The position numbers and the translations under genes were made by a program. The notes beneath the pieces are model-generated. The model was not told where the DNA came from. It ran no database searches and saw nothing but the letters and a program-made list of their open reading frames with translations. 64,000 bases of DNA from Candidatus Levyibacteriota bacterium (GTDB lineage: Bacteria; Patescibacteriota; Microgenomatia; Levybacterales; UBA12049). How positions within the stretch are numbered: position 1 is the stretch's first letter; every line of letters starts with the position of its first letter. The DNA lies in assembly GCA_029260965.1 (NCBI GenBank), contig JAJDCG010000002.1, forward strand, positions 124,707-188,706, read 5' to 3'. Positions 43,873-52,385 of this stretch are shown piece by piece.

Positions 43873-44061
43873 TAGATGAGTATAGCAGAATGCGAAGAGC
43901 CCTTGTCAATTGAGGTGGGACAGCATTTCTGACATGGAACTAAAGCGTCAAGAAATTCTTCCGCTTCAATTTTACTACGACGACATAGATATTAAAATTC
44001 TCCACTATGCGACAAGTGGTAACTTGTTTTCGCCTGGCGACAAGTACATTTCAGCCTAAAT

Positions 44062-44682
44062 ATGAATAACAAACAGATTAAAGCTAAAAACCACGAGAAC
44101 GACTTCATTAAACAGCACGTTACCGACGGTGTTTATCGAAAAATCGCTAAGGAACTGTCGGAAGCGGAAGACCCTAAAGGTCGCGGCAGAAAAATAGAAC
44201 TAACCGCCGAAAAACTTCATAATTTCCTATTCTATTTGTCTATGGGTGCAAGCTACAAATACGCCTCTGAATGGGCGCAAATCCCTGAAAACACACGACA
44301 AAAGTACATGGCAAAGTCAGAAGAATTCCGGCGGGTCGCTAGCCTGGCGAAAGCAAACGTAGAAATAGTAGCATTAGAAGTCCTGTACTGGGCTATGGTA
44401 GGGCGAAAACCTGGCTACTATGAATATATTCACCCGATTACCAAAGAACCTACCTATATTCTTCTTGACGCAATCCAGCCAAACGTTAAAGTAGCTATGT
44501 GGTGGCTAGATAAATGTCGATATTTTGAAAAACGAGAAGAAGCCGAAGCTAAAGAAAAAGGTTCAAACCAACTCGGTGCGCCACAAAACGAACATGAGGC
44601 TGAATTATTAGAAATGCTTATGAATCGACATTACGATTACGTTAAAAGAAAACAACAAGAAGTCACAACTAAAACTATCTAG
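44062..44682 (+). CDS. hypothetical protein, 206 aa (island-borne)
   Basis: GC-richer codons; basic or helical; no motif recognised. Confidence 0.5.
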   Translation: MNNKQIKAKNHENDFIKQHVTDGVYRKIAKELSEAEDPKGRGRKIELTAEKLHNFLFYLSMGASYKYASEWAQIPENTRQKYMAKSEEFRRVASLAKANVEIVALEVLYWAMVGRKPGYYEYIHPITKEPTYILLDAIQPNVKVAMWWLDKCRYFEKREEAEAKEKGSNQLGAPQNEHEAELLEMLMNRHYDYVKRKQQEVTTKTI

Positions 44683-44717
44683 GAATTCACCCTGGGTAAC
44701 TGTTATACTAATCTTAT

Positions 44718-45590
44718 ATGCAACAGAAGACAAAAAGCCTACTTGAAATACATATTGCGGTGTTACTTTTTGGTTTGGCAGGGCTTTTTGGGAAATTTAT
44801 TATCTTACCGTCGGCATTAATTGTTTTGGGTAGAGTTTTCTTCGCAAGTATCGCTTTAGGTGCTGTTTTACGATTTTCAAAACAAGATATTAGACTAGCT
44901 TCGAAAAAAGACTATTTTTTACTTGGACTATTAGGCATAATCTTAGCTATTCACTGGACGACATTTTTTCATTCGGTTCAAATTTCGACAGTCGCTATCG
45001 GATTGCTTACGTTTTCAACGTTTCCCGTATTTACAACATTTATAGAACCATTTGTATTTAAGGAAAAATTAAAAACTAAAGATATAGTTATCGCGTTGGT
45101 TACACTATTCGGGGTTGCACTAATTATTCCTACATTCGAATTAGGAAATAATGTTACACAGGGCGCAATTTGGGGAACTGTTTCAGGATTTACATTTGCA
45201 ATTCTATCTATCCTAAACAGAAAATACGTCAAGAAGTATTCAAGTTTAACAATAGCCTTTTATCAGGATTTAGTCGCCACTATTGTTTTACTACCGTTTC
45301 TTTTTTTCACTAACGCGTCATTCCATTTAAAAGATATTTTATTATTAATTTTACTAGGCGTGGTATTTACCGCTGTTTCCCACTCACTATTTATCAAAGG
45401 AATGACTCACATCAAAGCACAGCTCGCGAGTATCATTGCCAGCTTAGAACCTGTATATGGAATTATCTTTGCAATTTTTCTGCTGAACGAAATACCTACC
45501 GCACGAACTATCATGGGTGGAGTAATAATTTTAGGAGCAACCTTTGTAGCTTCAAACGACCAATTATTATCAAAGTTGAAAAAAGGGTAA
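44718..45590 (+). CDS. EamA/DMT-family transporter (10 TM)
   Basis: Two EamA-like repeats of about five TM helices each. Confidence 0.7.
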   Translation: MQQKTKSLLEIHIAVLLFGLAGLFGKFIILPSALIVLGRVFFASIALGAVLRFSKQDIRLASKKDYFLLGLLGIILAIHWTTFFHSVQISTVAIGLLTFSTFPVFTTFIEPFVFKEKLKTKDIVIALVTLFGVALIIPTFELGNNVTQGAIWGTVSGFTFAILSILNRKYVKKYSSLTIAFYQDLVATIVLLPFLFFTNASFHLKDILLLILLGVVFTAVSHSLFIKGMTHIKAQLASIIASLEPVYGIIFAIFLLNEIPTARTIMGGVIILGATFVASNDQLLSKLKKG

Positions 45591-45686
45591 GTCAAGTATT
45601 TGCACTATAACAAAACTATCTTATCCCTTGGTGAATAAGATTTGCTTTCCCAGCTTACTAAAAAGTTCTCACTTTGGCGATAAAAT

Positions 45687-47171
45687 TTACGCTTTTGACG
45701 CAGAAGGTTTATTGTCTTTTCTTGCGTCAATCAGAACGATATTTTCTATTCCTTCTAGTCCTAGCCTTTTAAGTATTCCTTGAACGCGTCGCAGTTCTTG
45801 AAAGGTAAAATAGATAATAACTTTGATACTTTTCTTCGTGTCATTTGCTTCTTCATATACACCTACCTGATTTTGCAAGTTCCTTTCAAGTTGGGTATTT
45901 GTAGCTAGTTTCAGTTCAACAAGACTTTTATCGGCTGAACCCTTAGATACTTTTACATCCACTGGGCCACGTCCATTGTTTACTTCGGTATTAAAATCAA
46001 ACGTAGAACCGCGCCAAGTAAGACGGTAGGCAATTTTTAAATCTTCTTCCCGCCGTATGGGTTCGTTATCTACATAGAAGAATCTATATCCGTCGTTGTT
46101 TTCAATAACTGATTTTAGGTACTGTACGCGTTGCATAGCTTCGTCGTATGAATCACAAGGTGTTTTATAAAAGTCTGTTTTTTCGGCAAGTAGTTTTGCG
46201 AAAGCCGTAAATTGGTCAACGTACATTAGTTCTGAATGCGTTACCTTTTGTTCGCTAATGCTCGTAGCTCTATCACCATTGTCTTCTTTATGTTTAATGT
46301 AGTAGTCAATCAGTTCGGGAAATGCCAGTATCGTCTTAACAGCGGCTTCTTTTTCATCCTTCTTTTTAGGGTCTTTTGGCAATACGCTTCTAAAATAGTT
46401 ATTAACTTTTGCACGCAGTTCATCATTAGAGATAGCATTCGGGATATTGTAAAAATCTTCAACTAAGTCATTTTTATTTATCCAGGTTTCATCTTTTGTA
46501 AGTAAGTCTTTTGGGGTCAAGATTACGAAATCATTTTGGTAAGACGGCAGTATGTAAGTGCCTTCTTCCCACGATTCCGTTTGATAGTTAAAGCGGACAC
46601 GAGGAATACGGAATTCCTGGCAAAGCATGGGGTCAAGATATTTCTTGGCAAATGCCTGGGTATATTGTAGTAAGAAGTCTAGGGTCAGATTAGTTGTGAA
46701 ATCGCTTATATTGTCTTTACCGACACCGTCTTTTATAAGACATAATTTCTCTAGGTGAGAACTTCTTGTTACCTTTTCTTGGCCGTAATCAGTGAAGATT
46801 TTGGCAAAGTTTTCGTTTAATGCTTTAGCAAAATCCGCCCCTAACGCGCTACCACTATTTCCATCAACAGAAAAACCTAGCCAGTTTTGTTTTACTTCTT
46901 TGAAACGATACCACGCGGCTAATAAGCCTTTATCTATTGGCTGGGAAATAGACTTGTCGCGTAAGAACCGTAAATAGGCAATCATTCCGTCATGCAACTG
47001 TTGGTATTCTGGCTTTTTACTATTAAAAAGAAGGAAAGGGTCAATGAATAATGGAAAATCAGCAACTAATGAAATATCAAAAGCCCCGTATTTGTCGAGT
47101 GCTTTTTTGTCAACATTGAAGTGGTCGGAAAAAAGTATTTTTGGCTGGGTATTTTCGGTATCGTTACTCAT
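45687..47171 (-). CDS. hypothetical 494-aa island cargo protein; its C-terminus has a possible PD-(D/E)xK-like motif
   Basis: Its start overlaps the Xis-like gene. ...GRGPVDVKVSKGSADKSLVELKLA fits hD...(D/E)xK spacing. No other recognisable domain. Confidence 0.5.
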   Translation of the reverse strand: MSNDTENTQPKILFSDHFNVDKKALDKYGAFDISLVADFPLFIDPFLLFNSKKPEYQQLHDGMIAYLRFLRDKSISQPIDKGLLAAWYRFKEVKQNWLGFSVDGNSGSALGADFAKALNENFAKIFTDYGQEKVTRSSHLEKLCLIKDGVGKDNISDFTTNLTLDFLLQYTQAFAKKYLDPMLCQEFRIPRVRFNYQTESWEEGTYILPSYQNDFVILTPKDLLTKDETWINKNDLVEDFYNIPNAISNDELRAKVNNYFRSVLPKDPKKKDEKEAAVKTILAFPELIDYYIKHKEDNGDRATSISEQKVTHSELMYVDQFTAFAKLLAEKTDFYKTPCDSYDEAMQRVQYLKSVIENNDGYRFFYVDNEPIRREEDLKIAYRLTWRGSTFDFNTEVNNGRGPVDVKVSKGSADKSLVELKLATNTQLERNLQNQVGVYEEANDTKKSIKVIIYFTFQELRRVQGILKRLGLEGIENIVLIDARKDNKPSASKA

Positions 47172-47352
47172 TGTTTGTTTTACCTTCGATAATCTTTTGA
47201 ACGTCTTCTGGCCTATATCTTCTATCTTGCCTTTTACCTATCCGAATGGCCTTTAAGCGGCCTTCATTGTCCCAACGCCTTAATGTTTCTGGGTTTACCC
47301 CCAACAATTCGGCCGCTTCCCTTATTCTTAACAGTTTTATTTTCTCTGACAT
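47164..47352 (-). CDS. excisionase/AlpA-family HTH DNA-binding protein
   Basis: AAELLGVNPETLRRWDNEGRLKAIRIGKRQDRRY matches the excisionase-family HTH. Confidence 0.65.
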   Translation of the reverse strand: MSEKIKLLRIREAAELLGVNPETLRRWDNEGRLKAIRIGKRQDRRYRPEDVQKIIEGKTNNE

Positions 47353-47386
47353 AACTTATACTAAATTATACATGTTTAGGCTATAA

Positions 47387-47800
47387 TTGGTAATAGGAAT
47401 TATGACTAAGAAAAACAAAAAATACGAACTTCCCGAATTTGCAGACGATATATTTATGCCCGACGATTTAATGAAGGTTCTTGTAAAGCGTAATGGGTGT
47501 ATGTATTTCTGGGGCATACCTTACAAAATCTACAAATCTAGTCGATTTCAGGATATGGAAGAACCGTACAAGGACGAAGATTTAGAGGCACTAGGTGGGG
47601 TTTTGTTAGATATTCTAGTACTTAATGGGCTTTCAATTGACTTCAAGCAAAAAACGGGCGTACAGAAGCTAAGCGTCATTGTACGGTCGTCTGAAAGCGA
47701 AGATAAACAGCTACTTCATAAATTGGCTACTGGGATTCGTGCAAATGACAAGCAATTGAATAGAGATAGCATTCCAGGAACTAATAACGACAATGAATAA
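47387..47800 (+). CDS. hypothetical protein, 137 aa (island-borne)
   Basis: ORF overlapping the integrase start by 8 nt. Confidence 0.45.
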   Translation: MVIGIMTKKNKKYELPEFADDIFMPDDLMKVLVKRNGCMYFWGIPYKIYKSSRFQDMEEPYKDEDLEALGGVLLDILVLNGLSIDFKQKTGVQKLSVIVRSSESEDKQLLHKLATGIRANDKQLNRDSIPGTNNDNE

Positions 47801-49583
47801 ACAACAGACTGCACCACTTCGAGCCGCCGTTTATCTTCGGGTATCTACTGACGACCAGATAGAAAAATATGGCATACCTTTACAGAAGGCGGCTGTTGAA
47901 GCGGTAGTTAATTCAAAAGGTAAACTAGACGACGGCTCACCCGCTATGGTTCTAGCTGGCGAACAATACATTTACAAAGACGAAGGGATTAGTGGTACTA
48001 CGCCACTAGAAGAACGGCCTGGTTTTGTACTAATGAAGGAAGATATTGAAAACGCGCTAGGTGGCGTAAAACCTTTTGATATTGTAGCCGTCTATCGTAT
48101 CGACAGATTCGCCCGTAAATTAAAAATCTTGCTAGAAGTAATCGACTATTTCGAAGCGCGCGATATTCAGTTCATTTCAGCCAATGAGAGCATAGATACT
48201 TCTACGCCATTCGGTAAAGCCATGCTAGGGATTATCGGTGTAATAGCCGAGCTAGAAAGGGAAACTACCAAAGCTAGAACACAAGCTGGTAAGGAACAAG
48301 CTATCGAACGTGGGGTGTATATGGGTGCAAGCGCGCCTTATGGGTACGTAAAGGACAAGGATAAGCGACTGCAAATTTTCCCGCCAGAAGCCGATATTGT
48401 ACGCAGTATATTTGAAATGTTTGTAGTTGAAAAAAGAAATACCCAGCAAATAGCCGACCGCCTTACAGATAAAAAGGTGCTTACACCCCTACCTTCCGCA
48501 ATTAAATACGAAAAAAGGAAAGCTGGACGGACAAAAGTTAATGACCCGTATTTCTGGCGTGATTCGACAGTTAGAGATATTGTCAAAGACGAAGTGTATC
48601 TAGGAATTTATCACTACAATAAAAACCAGGGAACTAAGCGGTTAGATAGGTCTTTATGGAAAGAATCACCATACCGCCACGGTGATATTGTTGACTTGGG
48701 TACTTTCGAACTGGCGCAAAGACGCATTAAAGAAGATATTGCCTTACGTAACAGTATGAAAACGGCTGATAATCACCTTTACCTACTATCTGGTCTATTA
48801 AAATGTCATGCTTGCTACGACCCCCATTCTGACCGTGACCCGCTTAACTGGACGGGTACGAGTAAAGTCATTAAGAAAAGTAATAAGCGCGCCTACTACT
48901 ACCAATGTGGAGCTAAGAATACTAAAAAATACTCTACCGTTTGTAAGGCTATACCATTTCCAGCCGACGAAATCGAACAGTTTGCAACTGACTTTGTAAA
49001 GAACCTTCTAAGCGACCCTGAAAGCGTCTATAACCATGTTAATTCCCTTCAATCAACCAAAGTTAAGAAACGGCTATTAGAGAAAAAACAGTCAGAAGTT
49101 ACCAAATTACTTAATGAACTACCGCGCCGACGCCAGAATGTGAAGCGAATGTATAAGCGCTGCGATATTGGCGATAGTGAGTATGACGAAGAAATGGAAG
49201 GTATAAAGGCAAAGGAAGCTGAATACAAGACAGATTTAGACGCAATACAATTGCAAATCGGCGAAAGCAAGCTGTCGGATATATATACCCGCACACTTAA
49301 ATTATTTGCAAAGAAGTATAAGCCTTTCCTAGACGGCTTAATGACTGATAGGCAAGAAGTATCAGAACTAATTCACCTTATTGTCGATAGAATCCACGTT
49401 TATACACGTAAGGCGACTAAAAACGACAAAATAGCGGGTCGGAAGAAGGAAGACCAGGTAATACCATACCAAGTTAGAATCGACTTACGCCTGCCACAAG
49501 ACATGATGAAACGATTTGCCCAGCAAGGCAAGTTCGAAGTCAAAAATGCTGAATTGTGGGCGCAAGAGGAGTCGAACCCCTGA
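47793..49583 (+). CDS. large serine recombinase (integrase)
   Basis: Resolvase catalytic domain with AAVYLRVSTDDQ (the Ser nucleophile), a recombinase domain, a Cys-rich zinc ribbon (CHACY...CGAK...C) and a coiled-coil. The last 9 codons are encoded by the tRNA-Val 3' half on the opposite strand. Confidence 0.9.
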   Translation: MNKQQTAPLRAAVYLRVSTDDQIEKYGIPLQKAAVEAVVNSKGKLDDGSPAMVLAGEQYIYKDEGISGTTPLEERPGFVLMKEDIENALGGVKPFDIVAVYRIDRFARKLKILLEVIDYFEARDIQFISANESIDTSTPFGKAMLGIIGVIAELERETTKARTQAGKEQAIERGVYMGASAPYGYVKDKDKRLQIFPPEADIVRSIFEMFVVEKRNTQQIADRLTDKKVLTPLPSAIKYEKRKAGRTKVNDPYFWRDSTVRDIVKDEVYLGIYHYNKNQGTKRLDRSLWKESPYRHGDIVDLGTFELAQRRIKEDIALRNSMKTADNHLYLLSGLLKCHACYDPHSDRDPLNWTGTSKVIKKSNKRAYYYQCGAKNTKKYSTVCKAIPFPADEIEQFATDFVKNLLSDPESVYNHVNSLQSTKVKKRLLEKKQSEVTKLLNELPRRRQNVKRMYKRCDIGDSEYDEEMEGIKAKEAEYKTDLDAIQLQIGESKLSDIYTRTLKLFAKKYKPFLDGLMTDRQEVSELIHLIVDRIHVYTRKATKNDKIAGRKKEDQVIPYQVRIDLRLPQDMMKRFAQQGKFEVKNAELWAQEESNP

Positions 49584-49630
49584 CCTTTACAATGTCAATG
49601 TAACGCTCTAACCAGCTGAGCTATGCGCCC
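49557..49630 (-). tRNA. tRNA-Val (anticodon GAC)
   Basis: Reverse complement GGGCGCATAGCTCAGCTGGTTAGAGCG TTACA-TTGACAT-TGTAA ...GGTTCGACTCC...TGCGCCCA; cloverleaf with the GAC anticodon. Confidence 0.85.
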
Positions 49631-50777: not shown

Positions 50778-52385
50778 TCAGACGAGCACTGATTTTATTG
50801 TTTCTCCCACCACAAGGTTTGTTCTTCCTTTCCGTTCTGTATCCAGTGCAAAATCTATAGCCTTTTCTATTCTAGCAGAGGCTAATTTCTTATCTCCAGT
50901 TAAAATCATCCCCGCAGGATTATCTGGCATTCGCATAAAAGCTCTGTGCTTTCCCCAACCATGGGTATAAGCGAGCTGATCTAATTCGTACATTTCGTCT
51001 CTAACGGCTGAAACATCCGCTCCTCTTAGGTCATATCCGTCAATTGTGGTAACGCCCTCCCATACAATTTTTTGTATTTCTCTAGGAGAGGGATATCTGT
51101 TTGTTAAGCCGGTAACAGCAAGAACCCCGTCAGTATAATTTGTAAATCTAGCGTTTGACTCAGCCACATAGTAACCGTATTCTTTGCCCATTTTTCGTCT
51201 CAGTTCTGCTTCCCTGGGGCCAGGAAGCATAATGTCTACATTCACAATTCCACTAATTTCCTCATATGATATTCCCCATTTTTTAGCTGTTTCTTTTATA
51301 AATGCTATGAAATCATCTGTTGTTTTTTCTTCATAAATTGCTTGAAGTCTTTTAAGATGAGGATTGTCAGGCTGGTATCTTTCTGTTCCTCTGCATGCCA
51401 TTGTTCCCTCTTGTTGTATTTGTCCGTTCCATCCTAAGCTTTCTTCATCGCCTTTGTTGATAACAATTGATAGTCCAGGTGAATCTACAATATCCATAAA
51501 CCTTGTTACAACAAATTGAGGATTTGCGTCTCTATTGAACGAACTATCCAAGATCCTTTTTGCTTCTTTAATAGCTTGTCTCCAGTTACCATTTCTGTAT
51601 ATTTTTTCCGTTTCTTTACCATCTACCTCTTCCGTTATTGGCTTACTATTAATAATTACGTGAATTCCGTCAGTTTTTTCGTAAATTATTACGTTTCCTC
51701 CATAGTTTCCATCAGATTCGTCAGCTCTAATTACGACTCCAAGAGGGTATGTGTTTGACATATCATGTTCTGTGTATAAATCTTGCGCTTCATTTAAGAC
51801 TCTGATGGATTCACGTTCTAACGTGTCAAGATTAGCAATACGATAATCAGGGATTTCAAATCCTCCAACTTGAGAATCTCTAACTATTTCATGAAAATTG
51901 ACTTTATTCTTTAGTTTCGTGACCATCTCAGGGGGTAGTCCCCATGATTCTTGACCGAGTGCTCTTATATCTGCTTGAGTATGAGATGTATGAATATATG
52001 GCACTACTAGTGTGTTTGCAGGATGATGACCATTTTGTATTTCTTTAAGTTCATAAACATTCAGTGCTCTTATCGCAGTTCCACTCAAATAGGCTGCGTG
52101 ATCACACACTCTTGAGGTTTTTCTCCGAACCAGTATTCCGGCTTCTCTCCTGCTCCAATCCAAAGCCCCAGCTCTTGGTCCATAATGTCCCTCAATTTCT
52201 AATGCCTCTTGAGGTGATACACCAGGAAGAACATGGTGGATGTTTTGCCAATGTAATGATATCTTGATTTCCACCCCATCAGATGTGTGGGATGGGAAGA
52301 TTGACTGGTCTCTTCCTCTGATTGTTTCTGTCCTACTCATAACAATAAAAAACCCGCTCATTTTGGCGGGTAATATAGTTGACAC
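50778..52385 (-). CDS. hypothetical protein, 535 aa
   Basis: Long clean ORF with moderate GC; no motif recognised. Confidence 0.5.
   Translation of the reverse strand: MSTILPAKMSGFFIVMSRTETIRGRDQSIFPSHTSDGVEIKISLHWQNIHHVLPGVSPQEALEIEGHYGPRAGALDWSRREAGILVRRKTSRVCDHAAYLSGTAIRALNVYELKEIQNGHHPANTLVVPYIHTSHTQADIRALGQESWGLPPEMVTKLKNKVNFHEIVRDSQVGGFEIPDYRIANLDTLERESIRVLNEAQDLYTEHDMSNTYPLGVVIRADESDGNYGGNVIIYEKTDGIHVIINSKPITEEVDGKETEKIYRNGNWRQAIKEAKRILDSSFNRDANPQFVVTRFMDIVDSPGLSIVINKGDEESLGWNGQIQQEGTMACRGTERYQPDNPHLKRLQAIYEEKTTDDFIAFIKETAKKWGISYEEISGIVNVDIMLPGPREAELRRKMGKEYGYYVAESNARFTNYTDGVLAVTGLTNRYPSPREIQKIVWEGVTTIDGYDLRGADVSAVRDEMYELDQLAYTHGWGKHRAFMRMPDNPAGMILTGDKKLASARIEKAIDFALDTERKGRTNLVVGETIKSVLV

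What the first reader, a model, noticed from the sequence alone, without database searches (positions are those of the whole stretch)
45687..47171. Uncharacterised 494-aa island cargo protein with a possible C-terminal PD-(D/E)xK nuclease motif
This is the largest gene of the integrative element and has no recognisable domain. The C-terminus has ...PVDVKV...(13 aa)...VELK..., compatible with a PD-(D/E)xK fold as seen in the nuclease domains of some phage-defence proteins. It overlaps the Xis-like gene start by 8 nt, so the two are co-transcribed. Cargo of small integrative elements is frequently anti-phage defence or abortive-infection genes.
Basis: inference. Interest (0 to 1): 0.55.

Follow-up and report, generated by a model that had tools for sequence, protein, structure and literature searches.

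The report
Candidate anti-phage sensor–nuclease on mini-island
The 494-aa gene belongs to a large, untested protein family (Pfam DUF8370+DUF8371) that joins a strongly conserved N-terminal module of unknown fold to a restriction-enzyme-like nuclease, which relatives replace with other cell-killing immune domains, so it is most likely a one-protein anti-phage defence gene on a small mobile element.

Summary
The ORF, the D405…E419-x-K421 motif and the 8-nt overlap with the HTH gene are all present. The bare motif means nothing alone: it occurs in 99% of shuffles. What makes it credible is an invariant set (E396, D405, E419-x-K421, Q435-xxx-Y439) sitting on a modelled αβββαβ core. The structural neighbours are almost all PD-(D/E)xK nucleases, although every hit is below significance.

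The protein is not an orphan. It is Pfam DUF8370+DUF8371 and PHROG 30194, with more than 6,500 relatives at about 60% identity across many phyla. RefSeq annotates it as "hypothetical protein".

It has no fixed partner gene. Neighbours are Type I R-M, DISARM, MADS and BREX-type genes, integrases and transposases.

Relatives keep the N-terminal module but add or substitute TIR, SIR2, CHAT or caspase domains. In the fusions checked, the nuclease's catalytic residues are lost. That marks the nuclease as an exchangeable effector under a constant sensor or regulator.

The defence function is inferred, not tested. In this window the gene travels with the backbone of a 5.7-kb serine-recombinase element at the 3′ end of tRNA-Val.

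Verdict: a plausible new defence family of a familiar architectural type, of moderate interest.

The parts
45687..47171 (-). 494-aa DUF8370+DUF8371 protein (the finding)
   Evidence: ORF. Precomputed Pfam DUF8370/DUF8371 on the identical protein. PHROG 30194 full-length match at E=2.9e-41. More than 6,500 homologues.
46377..47171 (-). N-terminal DUF8370 module (residues 1-265): the constant part of the family and the candidate sensor, regulator or enzyme. Motifs: D38-x-P-x3-D44-P45, E92, G99, N105-x-G107, H139-x-E141, D153-x3-D157.
   Evidence: These residues are at least 95% conserved in 84 representatives, including the effector-swapped ones. The profile finds 2,014 representative clusters. 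It matches PADLOC PDC-M36A and phrog_27295 over this part only. No structural neighbour was found.
46077..46376 (-). Helical linker region (residues 266-365)
   Evidence: AlphaFold model shows helices 270-283, 287-297, 299-331 and 341-358. The region is retained in the TIR variants up to about residue 326-388.
45690..46076 (-). C-terminal PD-(D/E)xK-like nuclease domain (residues 366-494, within DUF8371)
   Evidence: Topology alpha375-384, beta392-394, beta406-409, beta415-422, alpha428-442, beta448-454, alpha457-469, beta478-482. Foldseek top hits are NucS/EndoMS, Cdn1, Can2, PspGI, SfsA and DdmD and viral restriction-endonuclease/Mrr-like proteins. Weak Pfam hits to PDDEXK_9 and DpnII-MboI.
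45855..45986 (-). Codons of the putative catalytic set: E396, D405, E419, K421, Q435, Y439
   Evidence: Invariant in 43 homologues. Lost or deleted in the CHAT, TIR and caspase fusions that were aligned directly.
47164..47352 (-). 62-aa HTH_17/MerR/excisionase-type gene, translationally coupled to the 494-aa gene by an 8-nt overlap. It belongs to the element and is not a family-wide partner.
   Evidence: Pfam HTH_17 at 1.5e-12 and TIGR01764 excisionase-type domain at 1.1e-8. Overlap read. Present near the DUF gene in only 3 of 85 loci.
47365..47393 (-). Promoter-like site TTACCA-17-TATAAT, 13 nt upstream of the HTH start
   Evidence: 10 of 12 matches. The number of such sites in the region is not above the shuffled expectation, so this is consistency only.
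47387..47800 (+). 137-aa orphan backbone gene, divergent from the HTH gene. It overlaps the recombinase start by 8 nt. An alternative ATG start is visible at about 47402 in the sequence read.
   Evidence: ORF. No family match. Conserved in L014 (98% aa) and L002 (65% aa).
47793..49583 (+). Large serine recombinase (596 aa). Its last codons run into the tRNA.
   Evidence: Resolvase at 8.7e-33, Recombinase at 2e-18, Zn_ribbon_recom at 3.4e-5. Sequence.
49556..49630 (-). tRNA-Val(GAC), intact. This is the integration site at the right end of the element.
   Evidence: ARAGORN. Rfam tRNA at 69.7 bits over the full model. Junction alignment.
44718..45590 (+). EamA-family transporter occupying the variable cargo slot of the element
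   Evidence: Pfam EamA at 2.8e-35. This interval is replaced by other genes in L014 and L002.
44062..44682 (+). 206-aa backbone gene at the left end, weakly similar to a small terminase subunit
   Evidence: phrog_4102 at E=2.1e-4. Conserved in L014 (92% aa) and L002 (66% aa).
43914..49580 (.). Approximate extent of the integrative element (about 5.7 kb)
   Evidence: Limits of blastn homology to the related elements in L014 and L002, which sit at other tRNA genes.

Best explanation
The gene encodes a self-contained, single-polypeptide immune protein. Steps are marked as shown or inferred.

1. Its N-terminal about 265 residues (DUF8370) plus a helical linker form the constant module of a very large, horizontally mobile family (shown). 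I infer that this module senses an infection-associated cue or otherwise gates activity. Its dense, near-universal Asp/Glu/His/Asn/Gly motifs suggest a small-molecule, metal or nucleic-acid binding pocket, or an enzymatic site, rather than recognition of a variable phage protein.
2. The C-terminal about 130 residues are a Mg2+-dependent PD-(D/E)xK DNase with an intact E396/D405/E419-x-K421/Q435-xxx-Y439 set. Fold and motif are supported; activity is inferred.
3. The nuclease is the effector. I infer this from relatives in which TIR, SIR2, CHAT or caspase domains are appended or substituted and the nuclease residues have decayed.
4. On activation the nuclease would cut DNA, either of the invader or of the cell itself, stopping phage spread (inferred; abortive infection is favoured because the alternative effectors are cell-suicide or NADase/protease types).
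5. In this genome the gene is transcribed together with, and translationally coupled to, the element's small HTH gene (inferred from the 8-nt overlap and a promoter-like site). It rides on a 5.7-kb serine-recombinase element integrated at the 3' end of tRNA-Val.
For: Family size and mobility:
- More than 6,500 homologues at 56-97% identity.
- At least 572 species-representative genomes across Patescibacteria, Acidobacteriota, Bacillota, Chloroflexota, Nitrospirota, Pseudomonadota, Actinomycetota, Bacteroidota and others.
- 16 plasmids, 9 of them conjugative.

Nuclease:
- Invariant catalytic set placed canonically on an alpha-beta-beta-beta-alpha-beta core.
- 8 of the top 11 PDB neighbours of the isolated domain are PD-(D/E)xK nucleases, with probability up to 0.84.
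- Viral-library neighbours are restriction-endonuclease/Mrr-like, with probability up to 0.99.
- PDDEXK_9 at E=0.0014 and DpnII-MboI at E=0.022 recur weakly among members.

Modularity:
- The DUF8370 profile finds 2,014 clusters.
- The longer ones carry CHAT, SIR2_2, Peptidase_C14+EAD7, or TIR/SEFIR.
- These appended domains match effector modules of validated systems: bSEFIR at 6e-44, ThsA, ThsB, LmuA, and CBASS-type CHAT and caspase.
- In the fusions, D405 and the E396 loop are lost while the fold remains.
- P0176 is DUF8370+TIR with no DUF8371.

Context:
- No conserved partner gene.
- Embedded after hsdS with a 4-nt overlap in Bryobacteraceae.
- Neighbours include ResIII, HsdR/M/S, Eco57I, Type ISP, DpnII, SLFN-type helicase, PLD and integrases, plus DrmA/DrmD, MADS, BrxH, Hma and Dpd components.
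- It is the last gene of an MTase / DEAD helicase / GIY-YIG operon on a Paenarthrobacter plasmid.
- Elsewhere it sits in an island with PycTM, an R-M pair and a PhD/PIN pair.
- The N-terminal half matches PADLOC PDC-M36A, a candidate found by 'guilt-by-embedding' in BREX, DISARM and Type I R-M.

No methyltransferase lies in the window's element, so an unregulated restriction nuclease is unlikely.
Against: - No member of the family, nor PDC-M36, has been tested experimentally.
- No structural or sequence match of the nuclease domain reaches significance. Foldseek has no hit at E<=0.001 and TM is at most 0.41. Nothing in the PDB matches by sequence or by profile.
- The N-terminal module has no detectable relative of known function, so the sensing or gating step is pure inference.
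- The defence association is qualitative. I did not compute an enrichment statistic against a genomic background.
- About 60% identity across phyla is unusually high for an immune sensor.
- The family is absent from 50,697 deposited phage genomes. That neither helps nor hurts, but the PHROG membership is not mirrored there.
Confidence: 0.6

Rival explanations
1. It is a direct, Type IV-like or otherwise self/non-self discriminating restriction endonuclease. The N-terminal module would read a feature of foreign DNA, such as a base modification, a free end or an unusual structure, and the nuclease would cut only that DNA without killing the host.
For: The arrangement of N-terminal reader plus C-terminal PD-(D/E)xK nuclease, with no cognate methyltransferase in the element, resembles modification-dependent enzymes (established knowledge of Type IV enzymes). 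The gene is frequently embedded in methylation-based systems (Type I R-M, DISARM, MADS, BREX-type helicases), as are known Type IV enzymes such as BrxU. Very high conservation of the N-terminal module fits recognition of an invariant chemical feature.
Against: Replacement of the nuclease by TIR, SIR2, CHAT or caspase domains makes little sense for a DNA-targeting restriction enzyme, and fits a sensor driving generic toxic effectors. No known DNA-modification reader domain (SRA, YTH, winged helix, etc.) was detected by Pfam, PADLOC or Foldseek.
Confidence: 0.15
2. It serves the mobile element rather than the host. It would be an addiction or post-segregational killing toxin held in check by the co-transcribed HTH protein, or a weapon against competing mobile elements.
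For: Here the small HTH gene lies upstream and overlaps by 8 nt, a toxin-antitoxin-like layout. The gene is the most conserved member of the five-gene backbone in three related elements: 82% identity versus 65-77% for the others. Many copies lie on conjugative plasmids, next to transposases, or in a TraG/ParA context.
Against: The HTH_17 partner occurs in only 3 of 85 loci, all of one lineage. Other small upstream ORFs are not DNA-binding regulators. No partner family is conserved. Most copies sit in R-M or defence operons without any recombinase.
Confidence: 0.1
3. It is part of the element's own DNA transactions (excision, replication or packaging), or it is a DNA-repair nuclease.
For: It is linked to the backbone together with the recombinase, the excisionase-type HTH and a weakly TerS-like protein. 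The best PDB neighbour is the repair nuclease NucS/EndoMS.
Against: Only 3 of 85 loci have this recombinase. The family is scattered, non-syntenic and largely found in R-M or defence operons. The TIR, SIR2 and caspase fusions are incompatible with a repair or recombination role. The NucS match is weak and limited to the generic nuclease core (E=0.036, TM 0.38).
Confidence: 0.05
4. The C-terminal domain is not an active nuclease. The motif would be a structural relic or a binding site, and the protein would act through the N-terminal module alone.
For: No statistically significant match to any nuclease. The same fold persists without catalytic residues in the fusion relatives, which shows the domain can serve as a scaffold. 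The loop carrying E396-G402 is modelled with low confidence (pLDDT below 50 in the full-length model).
Against: All six catalytic-type residues are invariant in 43 diverse homologues of the 490-aa form. They are lost specifically where another effector is present. That pattern is expected only if they are functional in the 490-aa form.
Confidence: 0.1

Closest known systems
Pfam DUF8370 (PF28123) + DUF8371 (PF28130); PHROG 30194
   Same: The protein is a full-length member. The identical sequence carries both Pfam hits, and it matches PHROG 30194 at E=2.9e-41 over residues 10-493.
   Different: These entries are only labels for 'unknown function'. No mechanism, structure or phenotype is attached, and no paper in the searchable library mentions them.
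PADLOC phage defence candidate PDC-M36, component A (Payne et al., bioRxiv 10.1101/2024.01.29.577857)
   Same: It shares the N-terminal module (E=1.6e-21, residues 15-261 against profile positions 9-248 of 457). Both are found embedded in R-M-type systems.
   Different: Only the N-terminal half aligns. PDC-M36 is a three-gene cassette (FAM_01399>>FAM_00303>>FAM_00303), whereas this gene has no conserved partners. PDC-M36 is itself untested.
Shedu (SduA, DUF4263) and similar single-protein defences with a PD-(D/E)xK effector
   Same: By analogy, it works the same way: one polypeptide with an N-terminal regulatory or sensing part and a C-terminal PD-(D/E)xK nuclease, located in defence islands (established knowledge; contexts).
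   Different: There is no sequence match to DUF4263 or PADLOC Shedu models. Here the N-terminal part is the conserved one and the effector varies. By my recollection Shedu has the opposite pattern (variable N-terminus, constant nuclease); this was not tested here.
CARF/SAVED-nuclease effectors Card1, Can2 and Cdn1
   Same: They are among the best structural neighbours of the nuclease domain. They follow the same logic of a ligand-sensing N-terminal domain gating a PD-(D/E)xK nuclease (established knowledge).
   Different: No CARF or SAVED domain was detected. No CRISPR or CBASS genes lie nearby. The matches are weak (E 0.036-0.1, TM about 0.3) and restricted to the nuclease core.
NucS/EndoMS (PDB 2vld, 5gke)
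   Same: It is the top structural neighbour of the C-terminal domain (E=0.036, probability 0.84, 122 aligned columns).
   Different: TM is only 0.38 and identity 13%. NucS is a conserved repair enzyme with a different N-terminal domain. The genomic behaviour here is that of a mobile accessory gene.
Effector-swapping immune families (Thoeris ThsA/ThsB, Lamassu LmuA, bSEFIR, CBASS CHAT/caspase effectors)
   Same: Relatives of this protein carry domains that match these effectors. The principle of a constant sensor with interchangeable toxic domains is the same (established knowledge).
   Different: The constant module here (DUF8370) is unrelated to the sensors of those systems. The window's protein itself carries none of those domains.

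Membership tests
Pfam DUF8370/DUF8371 family | Matches to both profile HMMs PF28123 and PF28130 in N-to-C order | tested here: met
   Precomputed hits on the identical 494-aa protein and on all 120 listed homologues. My local Pfam copy lacks these models, so I did not re-score them.
PHROG 30194 | Full-length profile match | tested here: met
   E=2.9e-41, residues 10-493 against profile positions 6-476 of 478.
PD-(D/E)xK (restriction-endonuclease-like) nuclease superfamily | Core alpha-beta-beta-beta-alpha-beta fold | tested here: met
   AlphaFold models (pLDDT 79 full-length, 84 for the domain alone) give alpha375-384, beta392-394, beta406-409, beta415-422, alpha428-442, beta448-454. This is a predicted structure, not an experimental one.
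PD-(D/E)xK (restriction-endonuclease-like) nuclease superfamily | Acidic residue at the start of strand 2 and (D/E)xK in strand 3, conserved across homologues | tested here: met
   D405, E419 and K421 are invariant in 43 homologues, as are E396, Q435 and Y439.
PD-(D/E)xK (restriction-endonuclease-like) nuclease superfamily | Statistically significant sequence or structure similarity to an established member | tested here: inconclusive
   Best Foldseek E is 0.036 (PDB) and 0.016 (BFVD). Probability is 0.84-0.99 and TM at most 0.41. Pfam PDDEXK_9 reaches E=0.0014 in 2 of 43 members. Sequence and profile searches of the PDB found nothing.
PD-(D/E)xK (restriction-endonuclease-like) nuclease superfamily | Metal-dependent phosphodiester cleavage | not testable with these tools
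   Needs biochemistry.
PADLOC PDC-M36 candidate system | Full-length match to component A | tested here: not met
   Only residues 15-261 align, to profile positions 9-248 of 457. The same partial match is seen in all relatives tested.
PADLOC PDC-M36 candidate system | Adjacent B and C components (cassette FAM_01399>>FAM_00303>>FAM_00303) | tested here: not met
   The HTH, 137-aa and 206-aa neighbours have no PDC-M36 hits. No conserved partner exists in 85 loci. Cassette definition.
Shedu (DUF4263) | DUF4263 nuclease domain match | tested here: not met
   No Pfam or PADLOC hit.
CARF/SAVED-nuclease effectors (Card1/Can2/Cdn1) | N-terminal CARF or SAVED sensor domain | tested here: not met
   No Pfam or PADLOC match. 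Foldseek alignments cover only the nuclease core (86-113 columns).
Type II toxin-antitoxin pair (HTH antitoxin + toxin) | Conserved genetic pairing of toxin and antitoxin across homologues | tested here: not met
   An HTH_17 gene lies within 1.5 kb in 3 of 85 loci. Other small upstream ORFs are unrelated.
Classical Type II restriction-modification system | Cognate methyltransferase adjacent | tested here: not met
   The window's element encodes a recombinase, the 137-aa protein, the HTH, this protein, EamA and the 206-aa protein, with no methyltransferase. Methyltransferases neighbour only a minority of homologues.
Experimentally validated anti-phage defence system | Demonstrated protection against phage | not testable with these tools
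   No paper in the library reports a test. PDCs are explicitly described as untested.

The most novel reading that the evidence does not exclude
DUF8370 would be a previously unrecognised, widespread and strongly conserved sensor or signal-processing domain, possibly enzymatic. It would define a new family of one-protein immune systems whose output domain is interchangeable: PD-(D/E)xK nuclease, TIR, SIR2, CHAT or caspase+EAD7. The window would show its nuclease form being spread among CPR/Patescibacteria-like genomes by a minimal 5.7-kb serine-recombinase island that inserts at the 3' ends of different tRNA genes.
Probability: 0.45. Interest if true: 0.7.

Novelty: new variant of a known kind. 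Interest (0 to 1): 0.52.

Why it matters
If this is right, a family with thousands of members in at least ten phyla would gain a function. At present it is annotated only as 'hypothetical protein' or DUF.

The family includes members in host-dependent CPR bacteria, which by my recollection are reported to carry few recognised defence systems.

The N-terminal module would be a new immune sensor domain. Its ligand or trigger is unknown, but its conservation suggests something invariant, such as a nucleotide, a DNA feature or a host process.

The natural effector swaps give a ready-made experimental handle. The family also supplies cultivable sources for testing, including Paenibacillus, Cytobacillus, Halomonas, Bradyrhizobium, Streptomyces and S. 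meliloti plasmid pSmeSM11a.

If it is wrong, the gene remains one more uncharacterised accessory gene on a small island.

Tried and rejected
1. Local Pfam and NCBIfam gave no hit.
2. PDB searches by sequence and by family profile returned nothing relevant. The only hits were spurious 37-residue matches to designed or knotted proteins.
3. The N-terminal region had no credible Foldseek neighbour in the full-length search. The long alignments to methyltransferases had rmsd 17-22 Å.
4. The weak Pfam 'Beta_protein' hits in 4 of 43 members were followed to the satellite phage P4 beta protein of the gop-beta-cII locus. hhalign gave probability 0.2%, so the lead was rejected.
5. Membership of PDC-M36 was rejected because the match is partial and there are no partner genes.
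6. A conserved partner or operon was sought by all-against-all clustering of ±4 neighbours in 85 loci. None was found.
7. The toxin-antitoxin or dedicated-regulator idea was rejected.
8. There was no match in the deposited phage genomes.
9. No direct repeats flank the element above chance length.
10. Rfam found only the tRNA across the element.
11. Solved-structure relatives of the 206-aa and 137-aa backbone proteins were sought. Nothing meaningful was found.
12. Literature searches for PDC-M36, PF28123/PF28130, DUF8370/8371, RefSeq accessions and descriptive terms returned no characterisation.
13. The window's M20 peptidase gave no tblastn match at E<=1e-5 on the Amesbacteria contig L002, which encodes an M20 peptidase of its own. 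Host affiliation therefore remains unverified.
Full report
**1. The observation**

- An ORF of 494 aa lies at 45687..47171 on the minus strand.
- Its ATG overlaps by 8 nt (ATGAGTAA) the end of a 62-aa ORF at 47164..47352. That ORF is an HTH_17/MerR/excisionase-type DNA-binding protein (Pfam 1.5e-12, TIGR01764 1.1e-8).
- Two details were wrong. The serine recombinase (596 aa) is larger than this gene. The protein is also not without a family: the identical sequence is pre-annotated as Pfam DUF8370+DUF8371.
- It also matches PHROG 30194 over its full length at 2.9e-41. Its N-terminal half matches PADLOC PDC-M36A at 1.6e-21.
- The bare motif carries no information. D-x(10-20)-[DE]xK occurs in 32 of 39 long ORFs of the window and in 99% of shuffles of this protein.

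**2. Is the C-terminus a nuclease?**

- Among 43 homologues of 56-85% identity, E396, D405, E419, K421, Q435 and Y439 are invariant. The combined four-part pattern occurs in 1 of 39 ORFs and 4.8% of shuffles.
- I recognise the E…D…ExK…QxxxY arrangement from memory as typical of RecB/Cas4-type PD-(D/E)xK nucleases. That is a lead, not a test.
- AlphaFold models (full length: pLDDT 79, pTM 0.80; residues 340-494 alone: pLDDT 84) give α375-384, β392-394, β406-409, β415-422, α428-442, β448-454, α457-469, β478-482.
- D405 lies at the start of strand 2, E419-x-K421 lies in strand 3, and Q435/Y439 lie on the next helix. This is the canonical arrangement.
- With the domain alone, Foldseek ranks NucS/EndoMS, Cdn1, Can2, PspGI, SfsA and DdmD at the top. 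With the full model, the viral library returns restriction-endonuclease/Mrr/VRR-NUC-like proteins.
- No hit is significant (best E 0.016-0.036, TM at most 0.41). Sequence and profile searches of the PDB found nothing.
- I rate the fold assignment as likely (about 0.85) but not proven.

**3. The family**

- There are more than 6,500 relatives at 90% clustering, and at least 572 species-representative genomes carry one.
- Identity stays at 52-63% between Patescibacteria, Acidobacteriota, Bacillota, Chloroflexota, Nitrospirota, Pseudomonadota, Actinomycetota, Bacteroidota and others. This is the signature of a horizontally moving gene under strong constraint.
- Sixteen plasmids carry it, nine of them conjugative. 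No deposited phage genome does.
- RefSeq calls it 'hypothetical protein'.

**4. Context**

- Clustering the ±4 neighbours in 85 non-redundant loci shows no conserved partner.
- The commonest flanking families are ResIII, integrases, N6_Mtase, Eco57I, Methylase_S, HsdR domains, SLFN-type and SNF2 helicases, PLD, DpnII, Type ISP and AAA_15/21.
- With PADLOC models the neighbours include DrmA/DrmD, Type I specificity, methylase and restriction subunits, BrxH, Hma, MADS and Dpd components.
- Individual examples:
  - hsdM-hsdS-DUF with a 4-nt overlap in Bryobacteraceae.
  - An island with HNH, MTase+EcoO109I, PycTM and PhD/PIN.
  - An MTase / DEAD helicase / GIY-YIG / DUF operon on a Paenarthrobacter plasmid.
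  - A Tn3/IS256 neighbourhood near an AbiEii-family toxin gene on S. meliloti pSmeSM11a.
- This is the 'guilt-by-embedding' pattern that produced the PADLOC PDC candidates. Their authors describe those candidates as untested.
- I did not compute a formal enrichment statistic.

**5. Architecture: the most informative result**

- A profile of residues 1-265 finds 2,014 representative clusters at E<=0.001.
- Most are about 490 aa, but some are 600-860 aa. These carry, after the shared core, CHAT, SIR2_2, Peptidase_C14+EAD7, or TIR/SEFIR.
- The appended domains match effector modules of validated systems: bSEFIR at 6e-44, ThsA, ThsB, LmuA, and CBASS-type CHAT and caspase.
- In two TIR versions, homology stops before the nuclease. 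One of them is annotated DUF8370+TIR with no DUF8371.
- In the others the nuclease fold is retained but D405 and the E396-G402 loop are substituted or deleted. This is seen in the multiple alignment and confirmed by pairwise alignments for CHAT, TIR and caspase fusions.
- The N-terminal motifs D38, D44-P45, E92, G99, N105, G107, H139-x-E141 and D153…D157 stay at least 95% conserved in all 84 representatives.
- About half of the representatives keep the full catalytic set.
- The simplest reading is that DUF8370 plus the linker is a constant sensing or gating module, and that the PD-(D/E)xK domain is one of several interchangeable toxic outputs.

**6. Mechanism**

- Shown: the family, its mobility, its contexts, the modular architecture, and the conservation and predicted placement of nuclease residues.
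- Inferred:
  - The nuclease is active and normally restrained.
  - The N-terminal module triggers it in response to infection.
  - The outcome is DNA destruction that aborts infection.
- The alternative effectors are NADase- or protease-type suicide modules. That favours an abortive mechanism over Type IV-like restriction of foreign DNA, but the latter is not excluded.
- The unusual conservation of the N-terminal module argues for an invariant cue rather than a fast-evolving phage protein. That cue could be a small molecule, a DNA feature or the state of a host process.

**7. The local element**

- blastn against two related contigs defines two conserved backbone blocks:
  - 45694-49579: this gene, the HTH, the 137-aa gene and the recombinase.
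  - 43914-44665: the 206-aa gene.
- A variable slot separates them. It holds EamA here and Ldh_2/His_Phos_1/HIT in the Amesbacteria relative.
- The 494-aa protein is the best conserved backbone protein: 82% identity versus 65-77% for the others.
- The right end abuts the 3' end of an intact tRNA-Val. The relatives sit at tRNA-Glu(CTC) and tRNA-Glu(TTC), and a more distant serine-recombinase island sits at tRNA-Gln.
- The HTH gene accompanies the family only in this lineage (3 of 85 loci). It is therefore an element gene, either an excision factor or a regulator. Its coupling to the 494-aa gene is local.
- A promoter-like site (10 of 12 matches) lies 13 nt upstream of the HTH start.

**8. Comparison with known systems**

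- The protein is a member of Pfam DUF8370/DUF8371 and PHROG 30194, both of unknown function.
- It is not a PDC-M36 system, not Shedu, and not a CARF- or SAVED-nuclease (see the membership table).
- It works like the single-protein sensor-nuclease defences. It differs in its constant module, which has no known relative.

**9. Verdict**

The gene is a credible but untested member of a large candidate defence family. I call it a new variant of a known kind of system and rate it of moderate interest (0.52). The most attractive follow-up is the nature of the DUF8370 module.

Noticed in passing
window 49540-49630; L002 4952-5025; L014 2427-2499; L012 3702-3773: Related small islands driven by large serine recombinases sit at the 3' ends of different tRNA genes: Val-GAC here, Glu-CTC, Glu-TTC and Gln-CTG elsewhere. 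In the window the recombinase ORF's last codons are encoded by tRNA sequence, and in L012 the recombinase gene likewise overlaps the tRNA. By my recollection, tRNA targeting is typical of tyrosine integrases, so this looks unusual for serine recombinases.
   Followed up: partly
window 44683-45690 (EamA gene at 44718-45590); L002 9480-12234: The element has a variable cargo slot between the 494-aa gene and the 206-aa gene. It holds an EamA transporter here and a 205-aa protein plus Ldh_2, His_Phos_1 and HIT in the Amesbacteria relative. L014 holds about 1.1 kb of unrelated sequence.
   Followed up: partly
window 44062-44682 (+): The 206-aa backbone protein at the left end of the element weakly resembles a phage small terminase subunit (phrog_4102, E=2.1e-4). 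This raises the possibility that the element is a phage-satellite-like island. There was no support from Pfam or the PDB.
   Followed up: partly
L014 (CAZMSJ010000021.1), whole locus: A MAG labelled 'uncultured Gammaproteobacteria' carries an element 96% identical in DNA to the window's, but at tRNA-Glu rather than tRNA-Val. The next closest relative is in Candidatus Amesbacteria. This could be a mislabelled bin or very recent transfer.
   Followed up: no
window 50778-52385 (-): A 535-aa ORF two genes to the right of the element, beyond the M20 peptidase gene, has no Pfam match at E<=0.1.
   Followed up: no
L098 (Paenarthrobacter plasmid pA) 1074-12834: The homologue is the last gene of an operon annotated DNA methyltransferase / DEAD/DEAH helicase / GIY-YIG nuclease, with an 8-nt overlap. 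Beside it, on the opposite strand, is a cluster that includes an Hsp70-family protein. The whole region may be a composite defence locus.
   Followed up: no
L095 184-2718 (P0126): A caspase-bearing relative ends in an EAD7 'effector-associated domain'. I recall that domain type from NTPase-centred conflict systems. This hints that some family members plug into larger multi-protein systems. The contig is too short to show partners.
   Followed up: partly
window 47353-47401: The divergent intergenic region between the HTH gene and the 137-aa gene is only about 34-49 nt long, depending on the start codon chosen, and contains the promoter-like TATAAT. It is a likely site of autoregulation by the HTH protein.
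   Followed up: no
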